The notes beneath the pieces were generated by a model that worked only from the letters and a program-made list of their open reading frames with translations, did no database searches and was not told the origin of the DNA. From IMG/VR virus record IMGVR_UViG_3300032167_000022: a stretch of 25,767 bases of DNA; one strand, given 5' to 3'. The stretch's first letter is position 1, and each line of letters starts with the position of its first letter. Shown one piece after another: positions 9,687-25,442 of this stretch. A program made the translations under genes and the position numbers. This stretch comes from a virus.

Positions 9687-9718
9687 TATTTTATCTCCTT
9701 TTTTTATTTTGTATATAT

Positions 9719-9747
9719 ATTATATCATATTTTTTTATAAATGTCAA
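9719..9747 (-). promoter_or_regulatory. promoter cassette TTGACA-17-TGaTATAAT
   Basis: tgtcaa at 9742-9747 and attata at 9719-9724, then tca. Confidence 0.7.
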
Positions 9748-9769
9748 TAGAGTTATTGTTAATTAGAAA

Positions 9770-9990
9770 AGGGTAAAATTTAATAGTTAGTAAAATTTTA
9801 GGTAATTTTTCATAGTTAGTAAGTAATATTTTTATTAATTTTTTAATAGAAATATTATTAGAATATTACTTTTAAAAAAGGTAAAATTACCTAAAAATAT
9901 TGGACAAAAAAGGTAAAATATAAATAAATGAAATTGAAATAATTGTGCGACTAGAAAGGTAATTTTTCATAGTTAGTAAAATTTAGATTG
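9770..9990. repeat. iteron cluster (about 22-bp repeats AGGGTAATTTTTcATAGTTAGTAA) upstream of the rep-like gene
   Basis: Copies at about 9776-9798, 9812-9835 and 9955-9985, plus related AGGTAAAAT half-sites at 9880-9925. The last copy abuts the rep RBS. Confidence 0.6.
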
Positions 9991-10001
9991 GAGGTTTCCT
10001 T

Positions 10002-10685
10002 GTGGTAAAATCAAAAGATTAGATTGAAAAAAGGTTTCCTGCGGATACTACATTAGATTATGAAACTTTTTTAAATACAAATACATTAGATGGTGAATTG
10101 TATGGATTGTTATAGTCTATTTCAATAGCAGAAAAAGTTTGTAAAAAAGATGATAAGGGTGTGGCTTATGAAGTATATGAAACAGTAGTAAAGAAATCAA
10201 TTATTCCAAAACAAATAGATATGTGTGAAAAATTAAAAATTAAAAGTCCAAAAACATTAAGAGCGCATTTGAAGTCATTAAAAGATTAGGGGTATTTAGT
10301 GGAAAAAGAGAATGGAGATTATTATTTGCCAGTAAAAGAAAATATTTATTTAGATATTCCTTTAGCAACTTTAGAATATTTATAGGATAACTGTCGGGAA
10401 CATATTATTAAAATTTATATTTATTTAGTTTAGAAATATAAATATAAAGAAGATTAGAATAAAAGATTAAAATAGTAGGAAAATTATATTTTTACTTTGA
10501 ATGAAATAGCAGAACATATAGGTATATATATAAAAAATAATTAGAGAGCTTATGATATAATTAATCACGCTTTAGAATTATTATATAATTCAAAATTAAT
10601 TGACTATGAAACCATTTATATTAATAAAGTACCAAAGAAAAAATTATTAAATGTATCTTTAGTATATAATAGTAAAAAGAAATAA
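10002..10685 (+). CDS. Rep-like (two winged-helix segments) replication initiator candidate, open only if TAG is read as sense (9 in-frame TAGs)
   Basis: GTG at 10002 follows GGAGGT by 6 nt. Codon-by-codon reading has no TAA or TGA until the TAA at 10683. TAGs lie at 10020, 10113, 10287, 10383, 10431, 10455, 10473, 10476 and 10542. The translation has WH-like segments KQIDMCEKLKIKSPKTLRAHLKSLKD.GYLVEKENGDYYL and FTLNEIAEHIGIYIKNN.RAYDIINHALELLYNSKLIDYET. Flanked by iterons. Confidence 0.55.
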
Positions 10686-10770
10686 AAGGGTAATTTTTAA
10701 TAGTTAGTGAGGGCAATTTTTAATAGTTAGTAAAAAGGAAAAAAGGGTAATTTTTCATATTATATCTAAA
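10686..10770. repeat. iteron copies downstream of the rep-like gene
   Basis: aaaagggtaatttttaatagttagtga, gggcaatttttaatagttagtaa and a partial third copy. Confidence 0.55.
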
Positions 10771-10796
10771 TAATACTAAAAACTAAATAATTAACA

Positions 10797-10836
10797 AAGC
10801 GAAATTTATGTTCCAGCTATCGCTTGGAACATAAAT
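10797..10836. repeat. perfect 15-bp inverted repeat (gaaatttatgttcca N9 tggaacataaatttc)
   Basis: Seen directly. Followed by ttatagaaaattttttt; a candidate terminator or operator between the rep-like gene and the 10902 ORF. Confidence 0.5.
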
Positions 10837-10901
10837 TTCTTATAGAAAATTTTTTTCTGTTGATAGGGGCGGAAAACTGAAGTGAAAAAGGAGAATTCAA
10901 A

Positions 10902-11123
10902 ATGGAAGTCGGTTTTGTAAAATTAAGTGAAAATGATTATCATTCAGGTTTATCAGAGGTTGCGAAGCAGCCTCATAGAAAAGTAAAAGAATTGTATATA
11001 GATGAAACAACTGGAAAAATTTTCTTTGTTTTAGAAAATAAAAGAAGAGTTGATAAAGATAAAAAAATATGCTATAATATATTTGAAAATAAAAATGAAA
11101 GAGAGGATAATCCTTTTTTATAG
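10902..11123 (+). CDS. hypothetical protein (possibly extended to 11182 if TAG is read through)
   Basis: RBS AAAAAGGAGAAT before the ATG. It ends at a TAG; the same frame continues through a second TAG to a TGA at 11180-11182. Confidence 0.55.
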   Translation: MEVGFVKLSENDYHSGLSEVAKQPHRKVKELYIDETTGKIFFVLENKRRVDKDKKICYNIFENKNEREDNPFL

Positions 11124-11224
11124 GGTATGAATTTTAATTTTGATGATGCGGATTCTATTTTATAGAATGTATTTGAAAAATGAAATGAAAAAGGGACCCT
11201 TTCAGAAAGGTGAATTGAAAACTC

Positions 11225-11536
11225 ATGAGGCATTGTGGTACGTATGGTTATAAAAATGTTTATTTAATTGATAGAGATAATTATTTTTTGAATGAGAAGA
11301 ATAAGGATAAAGAGAATTATTTTATTATTGAAGATGATGATAGGTGGTTAGTTTTTAAAGGTAAAGTTGTTGGTAGAGTAGGATTAGATATGAAAGTTAA
11401 AGAGTTTGGGAGCAATAAATGTTGGGTATATGAAAAGTTAAAGAAAGAGAAAGAAAAGGAAAAAGATAATTATTTTAGTCAATATAGTACGGTAGTTGAT
11501 AAGTTTTTTGCGGAATTGAAAGAGGTTAAGTTATGA
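11225..11536 (+). CDS. hypothetical protein, K/E-rich
   Basis: RBS AAAGGTGA before the ATG; 103 aa; its stop overlaps the next start (ATGA). Confidence 0.55.
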   Translation: MRHCGTYGYKNVYLIDRDNYFLNEKNKDKENYFIIEDDDRWLVFKGKVVGRVGLDMKVKEFGSNKCWVYEKLKKEKEKEKDNYFSQYSTVVDKFFAELKEVKL

Positions 11537-11733
11537 TAGGGGTCGCGGCAGGTGTAGTAGTTGGCTTGGTGCTAGGCGCAGTTGTTAGGTATGTGTTGAA
11601 AAGAGTTTCTTTTTCTTCTGCTCTTGGATGTTGGTTGTTGAGAGGGTTTGAGGCGGAGGAGAGGAAGAGGTTTAAGGAGATTGGCAAGGAGAGAAGGAAG
11701 TTGTTGCGGCAGGGAGTTATTTGGGTGTTGTGA
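11533..11733 (+). CDS. small protein with N-terminal TM helix and basic C-terminus
   Basis: 66 aa, MIGVAAGVVVGLVLGAVVRYVL...; ATGA overlap; GC-rich. Confidence 0.45.
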   Translation: MIGVAAGVVVGLVLGAVVRYVLKRVSFSSALGCWLLRGFEAEERKRFKEIGKERRKLLRQGVIWVL

Positions 11734-11736
11734 TAG

Positions 11737-11870
11737 TAGGTAGGTAACAATATAGATAATAGGTAGTAGGTAGTAAGTAATAGGTTGATAATGGATAACA
11801 ACTGTATAGATAATAGATAATAATTATATAGATAATAATAAGTAAATAAAGTAATAAGTAATAAAAATTG
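11737..11870. repeat. C-depleted purine/T low-complexity block rich in TAG, GTAA and ATAA motifs
   Basis: tgatagtaggtaggtaac...ataggtagtaggtagtaagtaatagg...atagataatagataataatt... has almost no C on plus and stop codons in all frames. It is followed at 11915-11965 by a pyrimidine-only tract. Confidence 0.6.
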
Positions 11871-11966
11871 CGAAAATTGGAGAGGTGTCGTGCCGTTCGG
11901 CTCCACTAGACACTCATCACTTTTCCCTCGTCATCGTCATCCCTCATCCTTTCTTAATAAAAAATA

Positions 11967-12005
11967 AAGAGAGACATTTTCTTGTGTCTCTCTTTTTCTC
12001 ATTTT
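11967..12005. terminator. rho-independent terminator for the plus-strand module (bidirectional)
   Basis: Hairpin aaagagagaca-ttttctt-gtgtctctcttt followed by ttctcatttt. Confidence 0.7.
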
Positions 12006-12071: not shown

Positions 12072-12110
12072 CATCAAATAAAAAAGCCACGAAAATCGTG
12101 GCTTAAAATA
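12072..12110 (-). terminator. rho-independent terminator 3' of the 12111 gene
   Basis: Hairpin aagccacg-aaaat-cgtggctt; the reverse complement is followed by ttttttatttg. Confidence 0.65.
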
Positions 12111-12557: not shown

Positions 12558-12589
12558 AATTTTATCTCCTTTTTTTATTTTGTATATAT

Positions 12590-12618
12590 ATTATATCATA
12601 AATTTTTAAAAAAGTCAA
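12590..12618 (-). promoter_or_regulatory. promoter cassette TTGACT-17-TGaTATAAT
   Basis: agtcaa at 12613-12618 and attata at 12590-12595, then tca. Confidence 0.7.
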
Positions 12619-12740
12619 ATTTCGGCATTTTAAGCCACGCAAAAAAATTTTTGAGTAAATGTGAGGGAGAGGGTCTTTATTTAAGCCGTAGCTCTCAATA
12701 GATAAGCACTGGCGTATCTCTGGAGAAATCGCGCGTTCAT

Positions 12741-14450: not shown

Positions 14451-14490
14451 TTTATTTGCTCTCTTTCTGTTGGTTCTTTACTGTATATAT

Positions 14491-14519
14491 ATTATATCAT
14501 ATTTTTATAAAAATGTCAA
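14491..14519 (-). promoter_or_regulatory. promoter cassette TTGACA-17-TGaTATAAT
   Basis: tgtcaa at 14514-14519 and attata at 14491-14496, then tca. Confidence 0.7.
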
Positions 14520-14620
14520 TAGATATTCTTGTTTATTTACAAAATGTTCATAATTGCGGGATTTGTGCGGTTTGTACAAAAATGTTAAAAAAATTTCTGA
14601 AAATTTGTATAGATTACCAC

Positions 14621-14657
14621 TTGACAAAATAACGCCCGTGGCCTCCGGTCGCGGGCG
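14621..14657 (-). terminator. rho-independent terminator
   Basis: Hairpin cgcccgtggcctccggtcgcgggcg; the reverse complement is followed by ttattttgtc. Confidence 0.6.
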
Positions 14658-14714
14658 TTTGAACAAATCAAGTATATTTTGTAAATAAATTATGAACACA
14701 GCATTTTCGTCATT

Positions 14715-14751
14715 ATGCACAAAAGAAAATCCCTCTACATCAGTAGAGGGA
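14715..14751 (-). terminator. rho-independent terminator overlapping the stop of the 14735 gene
   Basis: Hairpin atccctctac-atca-gtagagggat; the reverse complement is followed by tttcttttgtg. The TAG stop lies in the stem. Confidence 0.65.
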
Positions 14752-15133
14752 TTGTATAAGTTTTGCGGATGGTAATTTCTACCTGTGGTGGAATTTCATG
14801 GAGAACAAAGCGGTCGTTCCGCACATATTCACCAATTCCCATTTCCTGCCACTTTTGGCGGTTTCTGTCCTCAAAACGCAGAGTATTATATTTTGAAAGG
14901 GGCAGCTTCCATAAATAGGTAAATTTGCCATCTGGCGGCATTGTGTGTTCAGGGCTTTTCCTATAATTGCGCGTGTGCTCTGCCTGTCTGCGCTTTAGGT
15001 CGTTAGTTGTTCCAATCTTTAGAACAAAATTTTTGTCGGTATCGTGGTAAAAACCCACATAAAGAAACTCTTTTTCTGCCATTTTTGCATCTTTTTGACT
15101 AAAATTTAAGTGAAAAGTGGGAAAAATTCCCAC
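14735..15133 (-). CDS. GIY-YIG-like nuclease domain protein
   Basis: EFLYVGFYHD...FVLKIGTTNDLKRRQAEH matches the GIY-YIG core (KIG.T.....RR...H). It ends in TAG; if TAG is sense, a 14-codon extension runs to the next TAA. Confidence 0.7.
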   Translation of the reverse strand: MGIFPTFHLNFSQKDAKMAEKEFLYVGFYHDTDKNFVLKIGTTNDLKRRQAEHTRNYRKSPEHTMPPDGKFTYLWKLPLSKYNTLRFEDRNRQKWQEMGIGEYVRNDRFVLHEIPPQVEITIRKTYTIPLLM

Positions 15134-15139
15134 TTTTCT

Positions 15140-15553
15140 TTACTTTTTGGGCTTTCGCTTCTGAACAAGCGTCAATTCAAAGGCATCTTCACCAATTTTG
15201 AACGCAATTTGCCGTTCTTTGTTGGTAATTTCCACATCTTCGGTCGCAAACTGACTGTTTTTTGTCAAAAACTCCGCCAATTCTGCGATTATTCCGCCCT
15301 TTGTGGGATTTGCCTTGCGCTCACGCTGGGAGAAATTGTAAACAGTAGGCTTGCGGTCGCGGCAGTTAGCCATACGCATCGCTTCCTTCTCTGTCTCCTT
15401 GTCAAGGTCGTACGCCAGCCTGTCATTAGCGGAAGCCTTCTCAACTTCCTTGTCATAGGACAAAACCTCAAGAGCTTCTTCTTCGGTACAGCGCAAGCCC
15501 TCTTGAATTCGCTTGACTTGCGCTTTGTCGGCTCGGGTCAGTTCCATCTTCAT
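15140..15553 (-). CDS. hypothetical protein (module partner B; paralog of 19305..19661)
   Basis: RBS AAAGAGGTG. Its C-terminal half is similar to the 19305 gene product. Confidence 0.75.
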   Translation of the reverse strand: MKMELTRADKAQVKRIQEGLRCTEEEALEVLSYDKEVEKASANDRLAYDLDKETEKEAMRMANCRDRKPTVYNFSQRERKANPTKGGIIAELAEFLTKNSQFATEDVEITNKERQIAFKIGEDAFELTLVQKRKPKK

Positions 15554-15572
15554 CACCTCTTTTGGTTAGGCG

Positions 15573-15594
15573 TGGCAGAGGATTAAACCTCTGC
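15573..15594 (-). other. conserved inter-cistronic RNA hairpin enclosing the stop codon (ggcagagg-tttaa-tcctctgcc)
   Basis: Seen directly. The counterpart at 19679-19700 has a different stem and the same loop. Confidence 0.6.
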
Positions 15595-15981
15595 CAGCTT
15601 GAAGTAGGAAACGCGCTTTTCAATCACCTTTTCCATCTTGCCATCTTCTACCAGCTGACGGACAAGCGCAGTGATTCTCTGCTGGGACAGTCCAGCGCAT
15701 TCGGGAACATTCTTGATGAAGTCAGTAACGGTGTGCTGACCGCCATCATTTGCGAGGTAGTCAAGCATTGCCTGCTTCAGCGCATCGTTTGCTTCCTTCT
15801 TTTCCATCTGCTTGCCAGACGGCTTAGCGTTCTTACGAGCCAGTAGGTCAAGCTCATTTTCAATGAATTCAACGAGCGTGGGGTTAGATGCTACAGAGGG
15901 GATAGCGAGGAGGGCGTTGAAGTGGTCACGCTTGGTGAGCTTCTTTGCGGTAGCGTTGAGAGTAGAATTAGTGTTAGCCAT
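15583..15981 (-). CDS. winged-helix-like DNA-binding protein (paralog family A, member 2)
   Basis: 132 aa ORF; a close paralog of 19693..20082 (for example TVTDFIKNVPECAGLSQQRITALVRQLVEDGKMEKV). Leader ccatggtatcaatcctttcagc is shared. Confidence 0.8.
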   Translation of the reverse strand: MANTNSTLNATAKKLTKRDHFNALLAIPSVASNPTLVEFIENELDLLARKNAKPSGKQMEKKEANDALKQAMLDYLANDGGQHTVTDFIKNVPECAGLSQQRITALVRQLVEDGKMEKVIEKRVSYFKLAEV

Positions 15982-16061
15982 GGTATCAATCCTTTCAGCT
16001 GTTTAGGTTGCCAACCTTTTAATTTGTTTGCCGTGGTAGGTTTCCCTCACCCGGTATATAT

Positions 16062-18986: not shown

Positions 18987-19031
18987 TGTTTTATCTCCTT
19001 TGCCTGTTGGCTCTTTGTTTTCTGTATATAT

Positions 19032-19060
19032 ATTATATCATATTATAATAAAAAAGTCAA
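19032..19060 (-). promoter_or_regulatory. promoter cassette TTGACT-17-TGaTATAAT
   Basis: agtcaa at 19055-19060 and attata at 19032-19037. Confidence 0.7.
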
Positions 19061-19162
19061 TAGGTTTTCTTTATTGTTTACAAAATGTTCATAATTGCGG
19101 GATTTGTATGAATTGACTAAAAACGCCCAAAAATTTTCTGAAAATTTGTATACATTACCTAT

Positions 19163-19200
19163 TGACAAAAAAAACGCGCGCCACCATCGGCGACGCGCGT
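19163..19200 (-). terminator. strong rho-independent terminator
   Basis: Hairpin acgcgcgccaccatcggcgacgcgcgt; the reverse complement is followed by ttttttttt. Confidence 0.75.
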
Positions 19201-19249
19201 TTGAACAAATCAAGTATATTTTGTAAACAATTTGTGAACTGGAAATTTT

Positions 19250-19295
19250 CGTCAAAATAAACAAAAATGCATATTACATTTGTAATATGCATTTT
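19250..19295 (-). terminator. rho-independent terminator (16-bp perfect inverted repeat)
   Basis: aaaatgcatattaca-tt-tgtaatatgcatttt; the reverse complement is followed by tgtttattttg. Confidence 0.7.
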
Positions 19296-19304
19296 GGAAA
19301 ATAT

Positions 19305-19661
19305 TTACTTTCGGGGAGCAGATAGAGTCAACTTGAATTTTCTACCATTGTAAAGAAACTCCATTTCACGTTCGGGATTGATAATGGTAAGATTTTCCAC
19401 TTTGTCAAAAATTGCCATTTCAATGCCTTTGATTAGTGCTTGCTTGTCGTTGTCGCTTTTGCGTTCCTTGGTGCTTGCTTTGCCGTATGCGTCAACGACT
19501 TTGCGCGGTGCTCGCCGCAATTCTTTACTTGCGTTCTTTTCTTCGGCGGTCTGCTCAAATAGTTTTTCGCCCTTGTCAATGCGCTTATCTGCGTCCATTA
19601 CGTCGGCGATTTCTTCATCTGTAAAGCCGAGCCGCCGCATTGCTTTTTCCTGTTCGCTCAT
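19305..19661 (-). CDS. hypothetical protein (module partner B; paralog of 15140..15553)
   Basis: 118 aa ORF with RBS GAGGGGGG. Confidence 0.75.
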   Translation of the reverse strand: MSEQEKAMRRLGFTDEEIADVMDADKRIDKGEKLFEQTAEEKNASKELRRAPRKVVDAYGKASTKERKSDNDKQALIKGIEMAIFDKVENLTIINPEREMEFLYNGRKFKLTLSAPRK

Positions 19662-19678
19662 GGATTACGTCCCCCCTC

Positions 19679-19700
19679 TTGGGGGAGGGGGATTAAACCC
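19679..19700 (-). other. conserved inter-cistronic RNA hairpin enclosing the stop codon (ggaggggg-tttaa-tccccctcc)
   Basis: Seen directly; a structural homolog of 15573-15594. Confidence 0.6.
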
Positions 19701-20082
19701 CCTCCGGAATGCGGAAGTAAGATACGCGCTTTACGATTACCTTTTCAAGCTTGCCATCTTCTACCATCTGGCGAACCAGTGCGGTAATCTTCTGCGGAGA
19801 AAGTCCAGCGCACGCAGGCACGTTCTTGATGAAGTCGGTAACAGTGTGCTGTTCGCCGCTCGCGGTTGCGAATTCAAGAATCGCCGCCTTAAGCCCCTGA
19901 TTTGCGATGTCCTTTTCAGTGAGCTTCTTGTTGTCGCTGTTGTTCTTGCGAGCCAGCAGGTCAAGTTCGTTGTTGATGAAATCAACGAGTGCGGGATTTG
20001 CGGCAACTTCGGGGAGCTGGAGCAGGGTGTTGAAGTGGTCGCGCTTAGTGAGCTTCTTGGAAGTAGAGTTAGTAGTAGCCAT
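19693..20082 (-). CDS. winged-helix-like DNA-binding protein (paralog family A, member 3)
   Basis: 129 aa ORF, highly similar to 15583..15981. Confidence 0.8.
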   Translation of the reverse strand: MATTNSTSKKLTKRDHFNTLLQLPEVAANPALVDFINNELDLLARKNNSDNKKLTEKDIANQGLKAAILEFATASGEQHTVTDFIKNVPACAGLSPQKITALVRQMVEDGKLEKVIVKRVSYFRIPEGV

Positions 20083-20166
20083 GGTATCAATCCTTTCAGC
20101 GTAGGTCGCTACCCATTATTTTTATTTTACCGATTGGAGGTCGTGCCCTCTTGCTTCGGTATATAT

Positions 20167-20333: not shown

Positions 20334-20373
20334 ATATTATCGGGGAGGATTTGTTCCTCTCTTCTGTATATAT

Positions 20374-20402
20374 ATTATATCATACTTTTGCGGTTTTGTC
20401 AA
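20374..20402 (-). promoter_or_regulatory. promoter cassette TTGACA-17-TGaTATAAT driving the tRNA-like element
   Basis: tgtcaa at 20397-20402 and attata at 20374-20379. The tRNA-like 5' end lies about 35 nt downstream of the predicted transcription start. Confidence 0.75.
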
Positions 20403-20451
20403 GGGGTTTTGCGAAATTTCTTAAAGTTTTTTTTGCGGTAGTCATGGGGGA

Positions 20452-21523: not shown

Positions 21524-21632
21524 TAGGTTTTTGAAAAAAATCTTTCGTCAAATTGCACAAACATTTTGGGAAAATTTCCCTTCACAATTTGTTTACAAAA
21601 TGCTTACAAAAAAGTATTGAAATTCACAATTT

Positions 21633-21670
21633 GTTCAAAAACCGGCCGCTTGGAGCGCGGGCGGCCGGCC
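21633..21670 (-). terminator. rho-independent terminator
   Basis: Hairpin ccggccgc-ttggagcgcgg-gcggccgg; the reverse complement is followed by tttttg. Confidence 0.6.
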
Positions 21671-21767
21671 CAAAAGTCAAGTCAAAATTTGTAAATAAAA
21701 TGAAAACAAAATATGAATTGAAATGAAAAAATGAATCCAAAAAATGGAAACAAAAATTGAAATTGAA

Positions 21768-21796
21768 ATAAAAAACCGCCCAAAGGCGGCTTTTAT
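21768..21796. terminator. bidirectional rho-independent terminator
   Basis: aaaaaaccgcccaaaggcggctttta. Confidence 0.75.
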
Positions 21797-23454: not shown

Positions 23455-23545
23455 TTTTAAAAAAATTTTATGAACAAATTGTGAACAAAATATGAACAAA
23501 AATGTATGAACAAATTGTGAACAGAATATGAACAAATTGTTACCA
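23455..23545. repeat. six tandem copies of (T)ATGAACAAA(T)
   Basis: tatgaacaaattgtgaacaaaatatgaacaaaaatgtatgaacaaattgtgaacagaatatgaacaaattg. Confidence 0.65.
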
Positions 23546-23591
23546 AAGCGGCTGGATATTTTTTCCACCCAGCCGCTTTATTTTACATCTG

Positions 23592-24960: not shown

Positions 24961-25270
24961 TTTGTTAACAAAAAATTTACAATTTAAAAATTTACAATTT
25001 GTTTACATTCGGGAGAATTTGTTCACAATTTATTTACAATTTATTTAAAAAAAAATATTGAAATTCACAGTTTGTTCACAAATTCGGGCCCTGGGGCCCG
25101 AGAACAGAGATAATTGTGAACAAATTGTAAATTTTTTGTTAACAATTCATAAATTGTTAACAAAAAATTTACAATTTGTTCACAATTTGTTCACATTCGG
25201 GAAATAAAAAGTTTACAATTTGTTCACAATTTGTTTACAAAAAATTCACAAATTGTTCACAATTTGTGAA
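24960..25270. repeat. dense array (more than 20 copies) of an 11-12-bp repeat ACAATTTGTTCACA / TTGTGAACAA with three TCACAttCGGG punctuations
   Basis: Examples: tttacaatttgtttacattcggg, aatttgttcacaatttatttacaattt, aattgtgaacaaattgtaaat, tttacaatttgttcacaatttgttcacattcggg, ttcacaaattgttcacaatttgtgaac. Confidence 0.7.
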
Positions 25271-25399
25271 CTCCGGCCGCTTGGAACGCGAGCGGCCGGC
25301 TCAAAATCAAGCATATTTTGTAAATAATTTGTAAATTAAAAATGAATTTTTTGTAAACAATTTATGAATTTTTTATTCATAGAAATTTTACAATTTGTT

Positions 25400-25442
25400 C
25401 ATAAATTAAAAATGGTAAATGCTGGAATTACCAGCATTTACC
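25400..25442 (-). terminator. rho-independent terminator with the stop codon in the loop (12-bp stem)
   Basis: ggtaaatgctgg-aatta-ccagcatttacc; the reverse complement is followed by atttttaatttat. Confidence 0.7.

What the first reader, a model, noticed from the sequence alone, without database searches (positions are those of the whole stretch)
9770..10770. Plasmid-like iteron-Rep module embedded in opposite orientation, with a TAG-laden initiator gene
22-bp iterons (AGGGTAATTTTTcATAGTTAGTAA) occur three or more times upstream and two or more times downstream of a plus-strand ORF. Its translation shows two winged-helix-like segments typical of iteron-binding Rep initiators (L.EIAE.IGI......A...L...LI). 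The last upstream iteron abuts the RBS, the classic autoregulatory layout. The gene is only open if its nine TAGs are sense. A replication initiator that depends on suppression would couple replication to the recoding switch. The module is the only plus-strand coding island in a 25-kb block of minus-strand genes. It has its own terminators at 11967 and 12075 and a 15-bp perfect inverted repeat at 10797.
Basis: partly seen in the sequence, partly recalled or inferred. Interest (0 to 1): 0.8.

Follow-up and report, generated by a model that had tools for sequence, protein, structure and literature searches.

The report
Iteron-flanked, TAG-coded DNA-binding gene in phage
A small gene for a two-winged-helix DNA-binding protein, readable only if the stop codon TAG means glutamine, sits between arrays of its own probable binding sites and a distinctive DNA hairpin in a family of large uncultured gut phages, and most likely marks a replication origin switched on only after the phage changes the genetic code.

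Summary
Five full 22-nt repeats and one variant flank a 227-codon plus-strand ORF (10002-10685). It has nine in-frame TAGs and no TAA or TGA. TAG falls on conserved glutamines, so it encodes Gln.

The gene belongs to a large unnamed family (823 clusters) on 27-201 kb phage contigs. In about 27 of 30 related loci the layout recurs:
- 1-6 same-strand AGGTAA... repeats lie upstream.
- 2-3 tandem repeats, 21-24 nt apart, begin at the stop codon.
- None lie inside the gene and almost none elsewhere.

The predicted fold is two winged helices. Sequence membership in Rep_3, RepA_N or RepC is not met. Structural similarity to RepA_N, DnaD-type and ORC winged helices is weak.

New here: a conserved box and a long hairpin follow the downstream repeats. 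The hairpin stem varies, but its tip is always GCGAAGC-type on the minus strand. That mini-hairpin is known from primase sites and N4 promoters.

TAG load ranges from 0 in standard-code relatives to all glutamines.

Best reading: an origin-binding protein with its origin, translationally gated by recoding (confidence 0.5). Main rival: a local transcription regulator. The module is not a plasmid insertion. Whole-genome skew could not be tested.

The parts
9719..9747 (-). Near-perfect sigma-70 promoter (TTGACA-17-TATAAT with TG) that drives the left minus-strand block, divergent from the island.
   Evidence: 12 of 12 match. It is one of >=19 such promoters in the window.
9772..9793 (+). Upstream iteron 1 (3 mismatches to the consensus).
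9801..9822 (+). Upstream iteron 2 (exact consensus GGTAATTTTTCATAGTTAGTAA).
9879..9892 (.). Palindrome AGGTAAAATTACCT, made of two inverted iteron 5' half-sites. It is operator-like. AAAAAAGGTAAAAT half-repeats lie at 9874-9887 and 9906-9919.
   Evidence: D12. Counterparts GGTAA..TTACC occur in L010, L012 and L004.
9958..9979 (+). Upstream iteron 3 (exact). It ends 10 nt before the RBS GGAGG at 9990-9994.
10002..10685 (+). Gene for a 227-aa tandem winged-helix protein. It has a GTG start and a TAA stop, 9 TAG (=Gln) codons and 1 CAA.
10689..10733 (+). Two tandem downstream iterons (10689-10710 and 10712-10733, 23-nt spacing). The first starts 4 nt after the stop codon.
   Evidence: The position is conserved in relatives.
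10746..10775 (+). Third, variant iteron fused to a family-wide conserved box (GGTAA-N..-TCATA..TATCTAAATAATA).
   Evidence: The box is found in 22 of 31 loci with <=2 mismatches.
10801..10839 (-). Long hairpin with a 15-bp perfect stem and loop GCTATCGCT. On the minus strand the tip reads GCGATAGC, a GNNA mini-hairpin. In most relatives the tip is (GA)GCGAAGC(GA).
   Evidence: Literature: (PMC13037366).
10902..11183 (+). Island ORF of 93 aa with 2 TAG codons. It has a recurrent small family in relatives and no Pfam/PHROG match.
11225..11536 (+). Island ORF of 103 aa. A recurrent family (..G.YKG..V....Y.I.D...LV..G.VVG..) is seen in relatives; function unknown.
11533..11733 (+). Island ORF of 66 aa with an N-terminal hydrophobic helix.
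11760..11865 (.). Low-complexity tandem repeats rich in TAG and TAA (periods 7 and 22 nt). Relatives carry other tandem arrays at the same place.
   Evidence: Contigs L005 and L019 end inside the equivalent array.
11870..11950 (.). Conserved non-coding element (AAAATTG.., CCGNTCGG, TCATCGTCATCC). It is C-rich in an otherwise C-poor island.
   Evidence: No Rfam match.
11966..11995 (+). Intrinsic terminator that closes the plus-strand island (the hairpin is bidirectional).
12084..12104 (-). Intrinsic terminator of the converging right-hand minus-strand block. It is not part of the island.

Best explanation
The window comes from a large uncultured phage that reads TAG as glutamine. The plus-strand island is a conserved core module of its family.

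The first gene of the island encodes a roughly 200-230 aa protein made of two winged-helix domains. This protein most likely binds as a monomer to the 22-nt direct repeats, with one domain on the conserved GGTAA half and the other on the lineage-specific 3' half. It probably also binds as a dimer to the inverted half-site palindrome near its own promoter, giving autoregulation.

The downstream part of the module most likely forms a replication origin. It consists of three repeats that start at the stop codon, then an invariant AT-rich box, then a long hairpin whose minus-strand tip is a d(GCGAAGC)-type mini-hairpin. In this model, binding at the repeats melts the AT-rich box. The SSB-resistant minus-strand hairpin then extrudes and serves as a single-strand initiation (primase or primosome/helicase loading) signal. 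Loading on the minus strand would send the fork leftward, in the same direction as the minus-strand genes.

In this lineage 9 of the 10 Gln codons in the gene are TAG, the first at codon 7. The protein can therefore be made only once a TAG suppressor is active, which places this step after the code switch.

Shown directly:
- the repeats, their conservation and their exclusivity to the gene's flanks;
- TAG = Gln;
- the fold;
- the strand-specific conservation of the hairpin tip.

Inferred:
- binding of the protein to the repeats;
- origin function;
- the priming role of the hairpin;
- fork direction;
- timing relative to the code switch.
For: Repeats:
- 5 matches against 0.01 expected, found only at the gene's flanks.
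- In about 27 of 30 related loci there are 1-6 same-strand AGGTAA.. repeats upstream and 2-3 tandem copies at 21-24 nt beginning -5 to +14 nt from the stop. None lie in the gene and almost none elsewhere in the 7-25 kb loci.
- The 5' half is conserved and the 3' half varies with lineage.
- One relative has >=10 copies over about 500 bp of non-coding DNA, with an assembly gap inside the array.

Protein:
- The model has two winged-helix domains at pLDDT 91.8.
- BFVD hits include 'replisome organizer' and 'replication initiator'.
- Weak hits to phrog_428, phrog_678, phrog_270 and Rep3_N.

Hairpin:
- Found in >=24 of 31 loci, with perfect 11-19 bp stems of unrelated sequence.
- The tip is always GCTTCGC-type on the + strand, which is GCGAAGC on the minus strand.
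- It is unique within each locus, and no T-run follows it on either strand.
- The minus strand folds more stably than the plus strand in 8 of 8 pairs.
- Such mini-hairpins are documented at the G4, St-1 and alpha3 primase origins and at RSF1010 ssiA, which lies next to iterons (PMC13037366).

TAG:
- TAG sits on the invariant or nearly invariant Gln38 and Gln144.
- The window gene has 9 TAG to 1 CAA, while 43 flanking ORFs have 129 CAA/CAG and 0 TAG.
- Across 30 loci the gene has 154 TAG to 106 CAA/CAG, against 124 to 1827 in 434 flanking ORFs.
Against: - No significant sequence similarity to any curated initiator family.
- No DnaA boxes lie near the module.
- No helicase, primase or loader is recognisable in the island.
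- GC skew shows no consistent step across the module (14 of 24 loci). In the window the skew merely follows gene strand.
- Only one strand-specific hairpin is consistently present, unlike the paired ssiA/ssiB of RSF1010.
- Upstream repeats lie at about -60 to -110 of a strong divergent promoter, which would also suit a regulator.
- A replication initiator made only after the code switch is unusual. Replication genes are often in standard code in recoded phages.
Confidence: 0.5

Rival explanations
1. The protein is a locus-specific transcription factor, not an initiator. Bound to the repeats, it autoregulates its own promoter through the palindrome and the RBS-proximal repeat. It also regulates the strong divergent leftward promoter and a promoter for the downstream island genes. 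The third downstream repeat occupies the -35 and spacer of an AATAAT -10-like element inside the conserved box. The hairpin would then be a transcription-level element, for example an N4-type template-strand hairpin promoter or a roadblock. TAG loading makes it a post-switch regulator.
For: - Pfam and PDB sequence matches are to regulator-type HTH domains: HTH_11 at 2.5e-5, LexA_DNA_bind in 45 of 66 members, MecI at 0.03.
- Iterons 1-2 lie just upstream of a 12/12 sigma-70 promoter.
- The conserved box contains AATAAT at 10769-10774, with the repeat's GGTAAT where a -35 would be.
- GNA-capped hairpins on the template strand are N4 vRNAP promoters, and the minus strand is the template for the downstream + genes.
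Against: - Upstream repeats vary from 0 to 6 and are absent in some relatives. The tandem set abutting the stop codon is what is conserved.
- Arrays of >=10 direct repeats over 500 bp of non-coding DNA are atypical for operators.
- The hairpin geometry (15-bp stem, internal loop, 2-bp cap) differs from the N4 5-7 bp stem.
- The hairpin occurs once per locus, not at several promoters.
- Early genes here use sigma-70-type promoters.
Confidence: 0.3
2. The repeats and the protein form a DNA-segregation (centromere plus centromere-binding protein) or packaging-recognition (pac/cos-binding, small-terminase-like) module, and the nearby contig ends reflect genome termini.
For: - Winged-helix proteins that bind flanking direct repeats also describe TubR/tubC and gpNu1/cosB. 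This rests on established knowledge, not a test here.
- 8 of 26 IMG/VR loci and 3 of 8 ENA loci lie within 6 kb of a contig end.
- A TAG-laden gene fits late (packaging-phase) expression.
Against: - No NTPase partner or large-terminase gene lies in or next to the island.
- The fold is two tandem winged helices with no oligomerisation barrel.
- Contig ends fall on either side at varied distances, and two fall inside tandem-repeat arrays, which points to assembly breaks.
- A second assembly reads straight through the same point (L004 versus L005).
Confidence: 0.08
3. The TAG-interrupted ORF is a decaying pseudogene, or the repeats are generic dispersed elements.
For: Under the standard code the ORF is broken nine times.
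Against: - The frame is free of TAA and TGA over 227 codons at 22% GC (P about 6e-10).
- 98 full-length homologues are found at up to 82% identity, and 823 clusters at E<=1e-3.
- TAG aligns with invariant Gln.
- The repeats occur nowhere else in the window.
Confidence: 0.01

Closest known systems
Iteron-regulated theta replicons with a Rep_3 initiator (F RepE, R6K pi, pPS10 RepA, P1 RepA with incC/incA iterons on both sides of repA)
   Same: - A roughly 230-aa protein built of two winged-helix domains.
- 19-22-bp direct repeats in one orientation, spaced about two helical turns apart.
- Repeats on both sides of the gene, as at P1 incC-repA-incA.
- An inverted half-iteron near the gene's promoter.
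   Different: - No significant match to PF01051.
- RepE, pi and RepA are not retrieved by fold search.
- No DnaA boxes.
- The host genome is a 100-200 kb phage, not a plasmid.
- The gene is written with TAG for Gln.
IncQ RSF1010 oriV (RepC iterons, AT-rich segment, ssiA/ssiB hairpins primed by RepB')
   Same: - Tandem iterons followed by an AT-rich segment and a hairpin capped by a C-GAA-G mini-hairpin.
- ssiA carries CCGAAGG. Relatives here carry GCGAAGC or CCGAAGG-type tips.
   Different: - Only one strand-specific hairpin is consistently present.
- There is no RepC-family match and no adjacent primase or helicase genes.
- The stems here are much longer, and a GA/GA internal loop precedes the cap.
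RepA_N initiators of Firmicutes plasmids (pSK41, pTZ2162) and DnaD/DnaB-type winged-helix domains; phage 'replisome organizer' N-terminal domains
   Different: - RepA_N iterons lie inside the gene; here there are none in the gene.
- There is no sequence-level match.
- This protein has a second winged helix in place of a host-interaction C-terminal domain.
Stop-codon-recoded (TAG to Gln, code 15) gut phages, as described by Borges et al. (bioRxiv 10.1101/2021.08.26.457843)
   Same: - In-frame TAG at Gln positions.
- TAG avoided as a terminator.
- Standard-code 'early' genes sit next to recoded units.
- Contigs of 100-200 kb.
   Different: That work emphasises structural and lysis genes and reports variable use in replication genes. 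Here a DNA-binding gene with flanking cognate sites is the local focus of recoding, up to 100% of its Gln codons.
Phage N4 virion-RNAP hairpin promoters
   Same: A GAA or GGA triloop mini-hairpin on the template strand upstream of genes.
   Different: N4 stems are 5-7 bp, and there are several promoters per genome. Here there is a 2-bp cap on a 11-19-bp stem, once per locus. No vRNAP is known for these phages.

Membership tests
Rep_3 initiators (Pfam PF01051 Rep3_N / Rep3_C; RepE, pi, RepA) | Significant sequence match to the family profile | tested here: not met
   The window protein has no hit at E<=1. Of 66 family members, 1 hits at E 0.0077. Distant member P0227 scores 21.4 bits, below the 22.4 cutoff.
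Rep_3 initiators | Two tandem winged-helix domains (WH1-WH2) superposable on RepE, pi or RepA | tested here: inconclusive
Rep_3 initiators | Direct 19-22-bp iterons next to the gene, plus an inverted half-iteron operator at the rep promoter | tested here: met
   Iterons. Palindrome AGGTAAAATTACCT at 9879-9892 with counterparts in relatives. The promoter itself was not mapped.
Rep_3 initiators | Origin activity dependent on the protein | not testable with these tools
   This needs replication assays or marker-frequency data.
RepA_N initiators (PF06970) | Sequence match; iterons located within the rep gene | tested here: not met
   No Pfam hit. There are 0 repeats inside the gene in 29 of 30 loci. 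The only support is weak structural similarity of one domain.
IncQ-type oriV (iterons + AT-rich + ssi hairpins) | Tandem iterons followed by an AT-rich segment and a hairpin with a C-GNA-G cap | tested here: met
   The comparison with ssiA is taken from PMC13037366.
IncQ-type oriV | Two ssi signals on opposite strands; RepC-family initiator; dedicated primase and helicase | tested here: not met
   Only the minus-strand cap is consistent; plus-strand GNA hairpins occur in about 5 of 31 loci. There is no RepC hit. No such genes lie in the island.
TAG-to-Gln recoded phages (code 15) | In-frame TAG aligned with Gln in homologues | tested here: met
   Window TAGs fall on the invariant or nearly invariant Q38 and Q144. 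The 82%-identical P0001 matches at five further sites.
TAG-to-Gln recoded phages (code 15) | TAG avoided as a terminator genome-wide | tested here: met
   In the window 2 of 43 standard-code ORFs end in TAG, each with a TAA or TGA 14-18 codons further on. In L004 and L009, 0 of 77 called genes end in TAG.
TAG-to-Gln recoded phages (code 15) | Suppressor tRNA(CUA) encoded by the phage | tested here: inconclusive
   There is no tRNA in this 25.8-kb window. The rest of the genome is not available.
N4-type hairpin promoters | 5-7-bp stem, 3-nt purine loop, on the template strand, several per genome, with a virion RNAP | tested here: not met
   The loop and strand fit. The stem architecture and the single copy per locus do not. 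Presence of a vRNAP is not testable.
Intrinsic terminator (for the 10801-10839 hairpin) | G+C-rich stem directly followed by a T-run | tested here: not met
   It is not reported by the terminator scan. The tails after the hairpin are not T-runs in the window or in relatives, on either strand.

The most novel reading that the evidence does not exclude
The gene encodes the origin-binding initiator of a previously undescribed replicon type used by a large family of 100-200 kb gut phages. The origin combines iterons that begin at the initiator's stop codon with a single strand-specific, GCGAAGC-capped DNA hairpin. That hairpin loads the primosome for unidirectional replication co-oriented with all transcription. 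In recoded lineages, selection has replaced essentially every Gln codon of the initiator with TAG. Initiator synthesis, and with it a replication phase, is therefore hard-wired to the appearance of the suppressor tRNA. This would be a genetic-code timer acting on DNA replication rather than on lysis.
Probability: 0.25. Interest if true: 0.8.

Novelty: new variant of a known kind. Interest (0 to 1): 0.6.

Why it matters
Large uncultured gut phages that reassign TAG are abundant, yet how they replicate and how the code switch is used for timing are largely unknown.

This module gives a compact, conserved and experimentally tractable handle on both questions. It offers one small protein, its short cognate repeats and one hairpin. 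Binding, origin activity and priming can all be tested in vitro after recoding nine codons.

The gradient in the same gene, from TAG-free standard-code relatives to relatives in which every Gln is TAG, is a natural series. It can be used to ask whether recoded codons accumulate by drift or are selected as a translational gate.

The strand-specific GCGAAGC-type tip would add a dsDNA-phage example to the few known biological uses of DNA mini-hairpins.

If the rival reading is right, the module is instead a post-switch regulator, which is still a useful marker of the early-to-late transition.

Tried and rejected
- Megablast and blastn of the window and the island against GenBank phages found no match. 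tblastn of the protein and of a TAG-free homologue found no match either. No annotated or complete relative could be fetched, so whole-genome skew could not be computed.
- A single-protein scan of IMG/VR found nothing. The alignment-based scan worked.
- The afdb50 fold library was unavailable.
- Rfam found nothing at gathering thresholds, and only terminator-like noise at E<=1.
- DnaA-box search: 11 matches against 8.2 expected, none in the module.
- tRNA search: none found.
- Cluster names: none informative.
- A distant homologue in an Enterococcus satellite-like contig (TerS, HTH_3 neighbours) gave no clear iterons and no annotated neighbours.
- The hairpin as an intrinsic terminator was rejected because no T-run follows it.
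- The hairpin as an RNA UUCG tetraloop was rejected. The common tip GCUUCGC lacks the C-G closing pair, whereas the complementary GCGAAGC is the classic DNA mini-hairpin.
- The pseudogene and dispersed-repeat readings were rejected.
- The GC-skew step across the module was inconsistent (14 of 24 loci).
Full report
**What the window is**

All substantial ORFs except one 2.3-kb island lie on the minus strand and are open in the standard code. Both minus-strand blocks carry many near-consensus sigma-70 extended -10 promoters, at least 19 copies. PHROG and Pfam hits are phage-like: peptidase, DnaQ-like exonuclease and HAD/PNK-like. No GenBank phage is similar at DNA or protein level.

The island (about 9.7-12.0 kb) has 24% G+C and only 6% C on the plus strand. 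Its GC skew is +0.3 to +0.5, against -0.05 to -0.3 in the flanks.

**Check of the observation**

- Repeats. The 22-nt repeat GGTAATTTTTCATAGTTAGTAA occurs at 9772, 9801 and 9958 upstream and at 10689 and 10712 downstream. All copies are on the plus strand and there are none elsewhere in the window. Chance expectation is 0.01. A variant sixth copy starts at 10746.
- ORF. It runs GTG 10002 to TAA 10685, preceded by GGAGG at 9990-9994. It has nine in-frame TAGs, one CAA and no TAA or TGA. From its composition the chance of staying open is about 6e-10, and 0 of 20000 shuffles stay open.
- Inverted repeat. The 15-nt perfect repeat is at 10801-10815/10825-10839.
- Terminators. 11966-11995 closes the island. 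12084-12104 has its T-run on the minus strand and ends the converging right block.

**TAG is glutamine**

The Q-translated protein finds 98 full-length homologues (43-82% identity) on contigs up to 198 kb. In the alignments the window's TAGs fall on the invariant Gln144 and the nearly invariant Gln38.

The homologues' genes are themselves TAG-laden. The database proteins do not translate under table 11. Counts are L001 7 TAG, L004 8 TAG with 0 CAA and 0 CAG, and L010 11 TAG.

TAG is almost never a terminator. In the window 2 of 43 ORFs end in TAG, each with a TAA or TGA 14-18 codons further on. None of 77 called genes in L004 and L009 end in TAG.

Within the window, 43 flanking ORFs use 129 CAA/CAG and no TAG, whereas this gene uses 9 TAG and 1 CAA. 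Over 30 loci the gene totals 154 TAG to 106 CAA/CAG, against 124 to 1827 in 434 flanking minus-strand ORFs.

The load varies with lineage:
- Zero in L011, L012, L025 and L039. In L011 and L012, TAG is the gene's actual stop codon, so those phages use the standard code.
- 1-3 in some lineages.
- 8 of 8, 10 of 11 or 11 of 12 in others.

The module therefore predates recoding. Recoded lineages have driven this gene towards complete TAG dependence.

**The cis-elements are a family trait**

Thirty loci were examined (ENA; IMG/VR). An unbiased repeat search in them gave a consistent picture in about 27 of 30:
- 1-6 same-orientation AGGTAA(A/T)n... repeats lie 90-330 nt upstream.
- 2-3 tandem copies, 21-24 nt apart, begin between -5 and +14 nt from the stop codon.
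- None lie inside the gene and virtually none elsewhere.

The 5' half (GGTAA plus an A/T run) is conserved. The 3' half changes with lineage..ATAGTTAGTAA..ATAGTTGCTT..GGATAGTTGCC..CTAAGTAACTT. This is what a two-domain reader with one conserved and one diverging specificity would produce.

One lineage has at least 10 copies over about 500 bp of non-coding DNA, with an assembly gap inside the array.

An inverted pair of 5' half-sites (AGGTAAAATTACCT, 9879-9892) lies between the upstream repeats. It has counterparts in L004, L010 and L012.

**The protein**

Pfam gives only sub-threshold HTH hits: HTH_11 at 2.5e-5, and LexA_DNA_bind and HTH_36 in about two thirds of members. A profile search of PDB sequences gives MecI and LexA at E >= 0.03.

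The AlphaFold model of the 82%-identical P0001 is confident (pLDDT 91.8) and shows two winged-helix-like halves.

BFVD returns uncharacterised gut-phage proteins (E 7e-9). Weaker hits include 'replisome organizer' and 'replication initiator', but also 'regulatory protein'.

An exhaustive profile search finds 823 clusters, none of them named. A few longer members give borderline Rep3_N or 'replication initiation O-like' hits.

Membership in Rep_3, RepA_N or RepC is therefore not established. The resemblance is architectural.

**A conserved box and a strand-specific hairpin (new here)**

Alignment of the region after the stop codon shows that the third repeat is fused to an almost invariant box (..TCATAGATTATCTAAATAATA). 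The box is present even in standard-code relatives and occurs in 22 of 31 loci with <=2 mismatches.

A long inverted repeat lies 25-60 nt further on. Its stem is perfect and 11-19 bp long, and the stem sequence is unrelated between lineages. Its tip is conserved: on the plus strand (TC)GCTTCGC(TC), which is (GA)GCGAAGC(GA) on the minus strand. Variants are:
- CCGAAGG-type tips.
- GCGGAGC-type tips.
- In the window, GCGATAGC, a GNNA cap.

At least 24 of 31 loci have the hairpin. Its orientation never flips. It is unique within each 7-25 kb locus, where the other hairpins look like terminators. No T-run follows it on either strand.

With DNA parameters the minus strand folds better than the plus strand in 8 of 8 pairs. 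Those parameters do not include the known extra stability of this motif or of tandem sheared G·A pairs.

An RNA UUCG tetraloop is not formed by GCUUCGC.

The review PMC13037366 documents d(GCGAAGC)/GNA mini-hairpins at:
- the primase start sites of phages G4, St-1 and alpha3;
- ssiA of the RSF1010 origin, next to its iterons;
- N4 virion-RNAP promoters.

**Mechanistic reading**

The best-supported model is an origin-binding protein with its origin: repeats, then the AT-rich box, then a single-strand initiation hairpin.

A helicase or primosome loaded on the minus strand would move leftward. That direction is co-oriented with the minus-strand genes on both sides, as expected for unidirectional replication of a circular or permuted genome. 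This step is inference.

In this lineage translation needs a TAG suppressor, from codon 7 onward. The protein would therefore appear only after the code switch, while the surrounding sigma-70-driven, TAG-free genes can be expressed immediately. Borges et al. report alternative code mainly in structural and lysis genes and variable use in replication genes.

**Evidence against this model, and rivals**

Against the origin model:
- There is no initiator-family homology.
- There are no DnaA boxes.
- No replication enzymes lie in the island.
- GC skew does not step consistently across the module (14 of 24 loci).
- The window's own skew pattern is explained by gene strand.

There is a consistent AT-skew step (24 of 24) and G+C step (23 of 24) across the module. 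This shows it is a boundary between two compositional gene blocks, but that may reflect gene class.

The main rival is a local transcription factor. The upstream repeats sit at about -60 to -110 of a perfect divergent promoter. The conserved box contains a -10-like AATAAT, with the repeat where a -35 would be. The hairpin lies on the template strand of the downstream genes, as in N4. Against this rival:
- The upstream repeats are variable or absent in some relatives.
- Some relatives have large downstream arrays.
- The hairpin geometry is not N4-like.
- The hairpin is single-copy.

Segregation and packaging readings lack a partner ATPase or terminase. The enrichment of contig ends near the module (11 of 34 loci within 6 kb) is at least partly due to assembly breaks in tandem arrays.

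**Verdict**

The module is a conserved, uncharacterised, iteron-type unit of a phage family, not a plasmid insertion. Its protein works like, but is not shown to be a member of, the winged-helix initiator families. Its TAG saturation is real and lineage-specific.

Noticed in passing
window 856-25743, minus strand (e.g. 9698-9755, 12569-12626, 14470-14527, 20353-20410): At least 19 copies of a near-consensus sigma-70 promoter with extended -10 (TTGACA..N..TATGATATAATATATAC) are spread through both minus-strand blocks, often preceded by a terminator hairpin. This is a dense array of strong host-type promoters typical of early or host-takeover regions.
   Followed up: partly
window 14474-15999 versus 19015-20100: A duplicated cassette of two genes plus flanking non-coding DNA at 76-89% identity. 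The ORF pairs are 15140-15556/15583-15981 and 19305-19661/19693-20082. The 130-aa proteins have weak winged-helix hits, and a third relative lies at 1810-2247.
   Followed up: no
window 21581-21780, 23463-23551, 25022-25409: Arrays of a second repeat family (TTCACAATTTGTT / AAAATTGTAAA) lie in intergenic regions of the right block. They include a 36-bp perfect inverted repeat at about 25112-25187. Similar AAAATTGT-type tandem arrays occupy the distal end of the island in relatives.
   Followed up: partly
window 11870-11950 (relatives: L004 12000-12130, L023, L009, L017): A conserved non-coding element sits at the distal end of the island: AAAATTG.., the palindrome CCGNTCGG, then TCATCGTCATCC. 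It is C-rich in a 6%-C island. It has no Rfam match, and no conserved peptide on either strand was apparent on inspection.
   Followed up: partly
window 11760-11865: A tract of short tandem repeats made almost entirely of TAG, TAA and ATA units (TAGGTAG x3.7, ATAGATA x5, and a 22-nt unit x2.5) follows the last island ORF directly. It carries stop or recoded codons in several frames.
   Followed up: no
window 10960-10966 (inside ORF 10902-11183): GCGAAGC occurs on the plus strand, flanked by an imperfect inverted repeat, about 125 nt right of the minus-strand hairpin. Plus-strand GNA hairpins at a similar place occur in about 4 other loci. These could be a second, opposite-strand signal or chance.
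   Followed up: partly
loci L005, L011, L012, L019, L022, L026, L037-L041: 11 of 34 related loci lie within 6 kb of a contig end, on either side of the gene. By rough estimate, about 3 would be expected for random placement on contigs of this size. Two contigs end inside the distal tandem-repeat array.
   Followed up: partly
window flanks and 24 related loci: The module is a sharp compositional boundary. Plus-strand AT skew is about -0.01 on the left and -0.11 on the right in 24 of 24 loci. G+C is lower on the left in 23 of 24. GC skew shows no consistent step.
   Followed up: yes
window, all minus-strand ORFs: Glutamine is scarce in the flanking genes: 2.4% overall, with several ORFs at 0-1.5%. 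Several neighbours in L004 and L009 have no Gln codon at all.
   Followed up: no
L013-L016 (Enterococcus sp. MAG contigs, 3-6.8 kb): A distant 301-aa homologue sits in a small satellite-like context (small terminase, Cro-like HTH, HNH). About 300 bp of non-coding DNA with CAATAGARCGTTAAA repeats lies downstream of it.
   Followed up: partly
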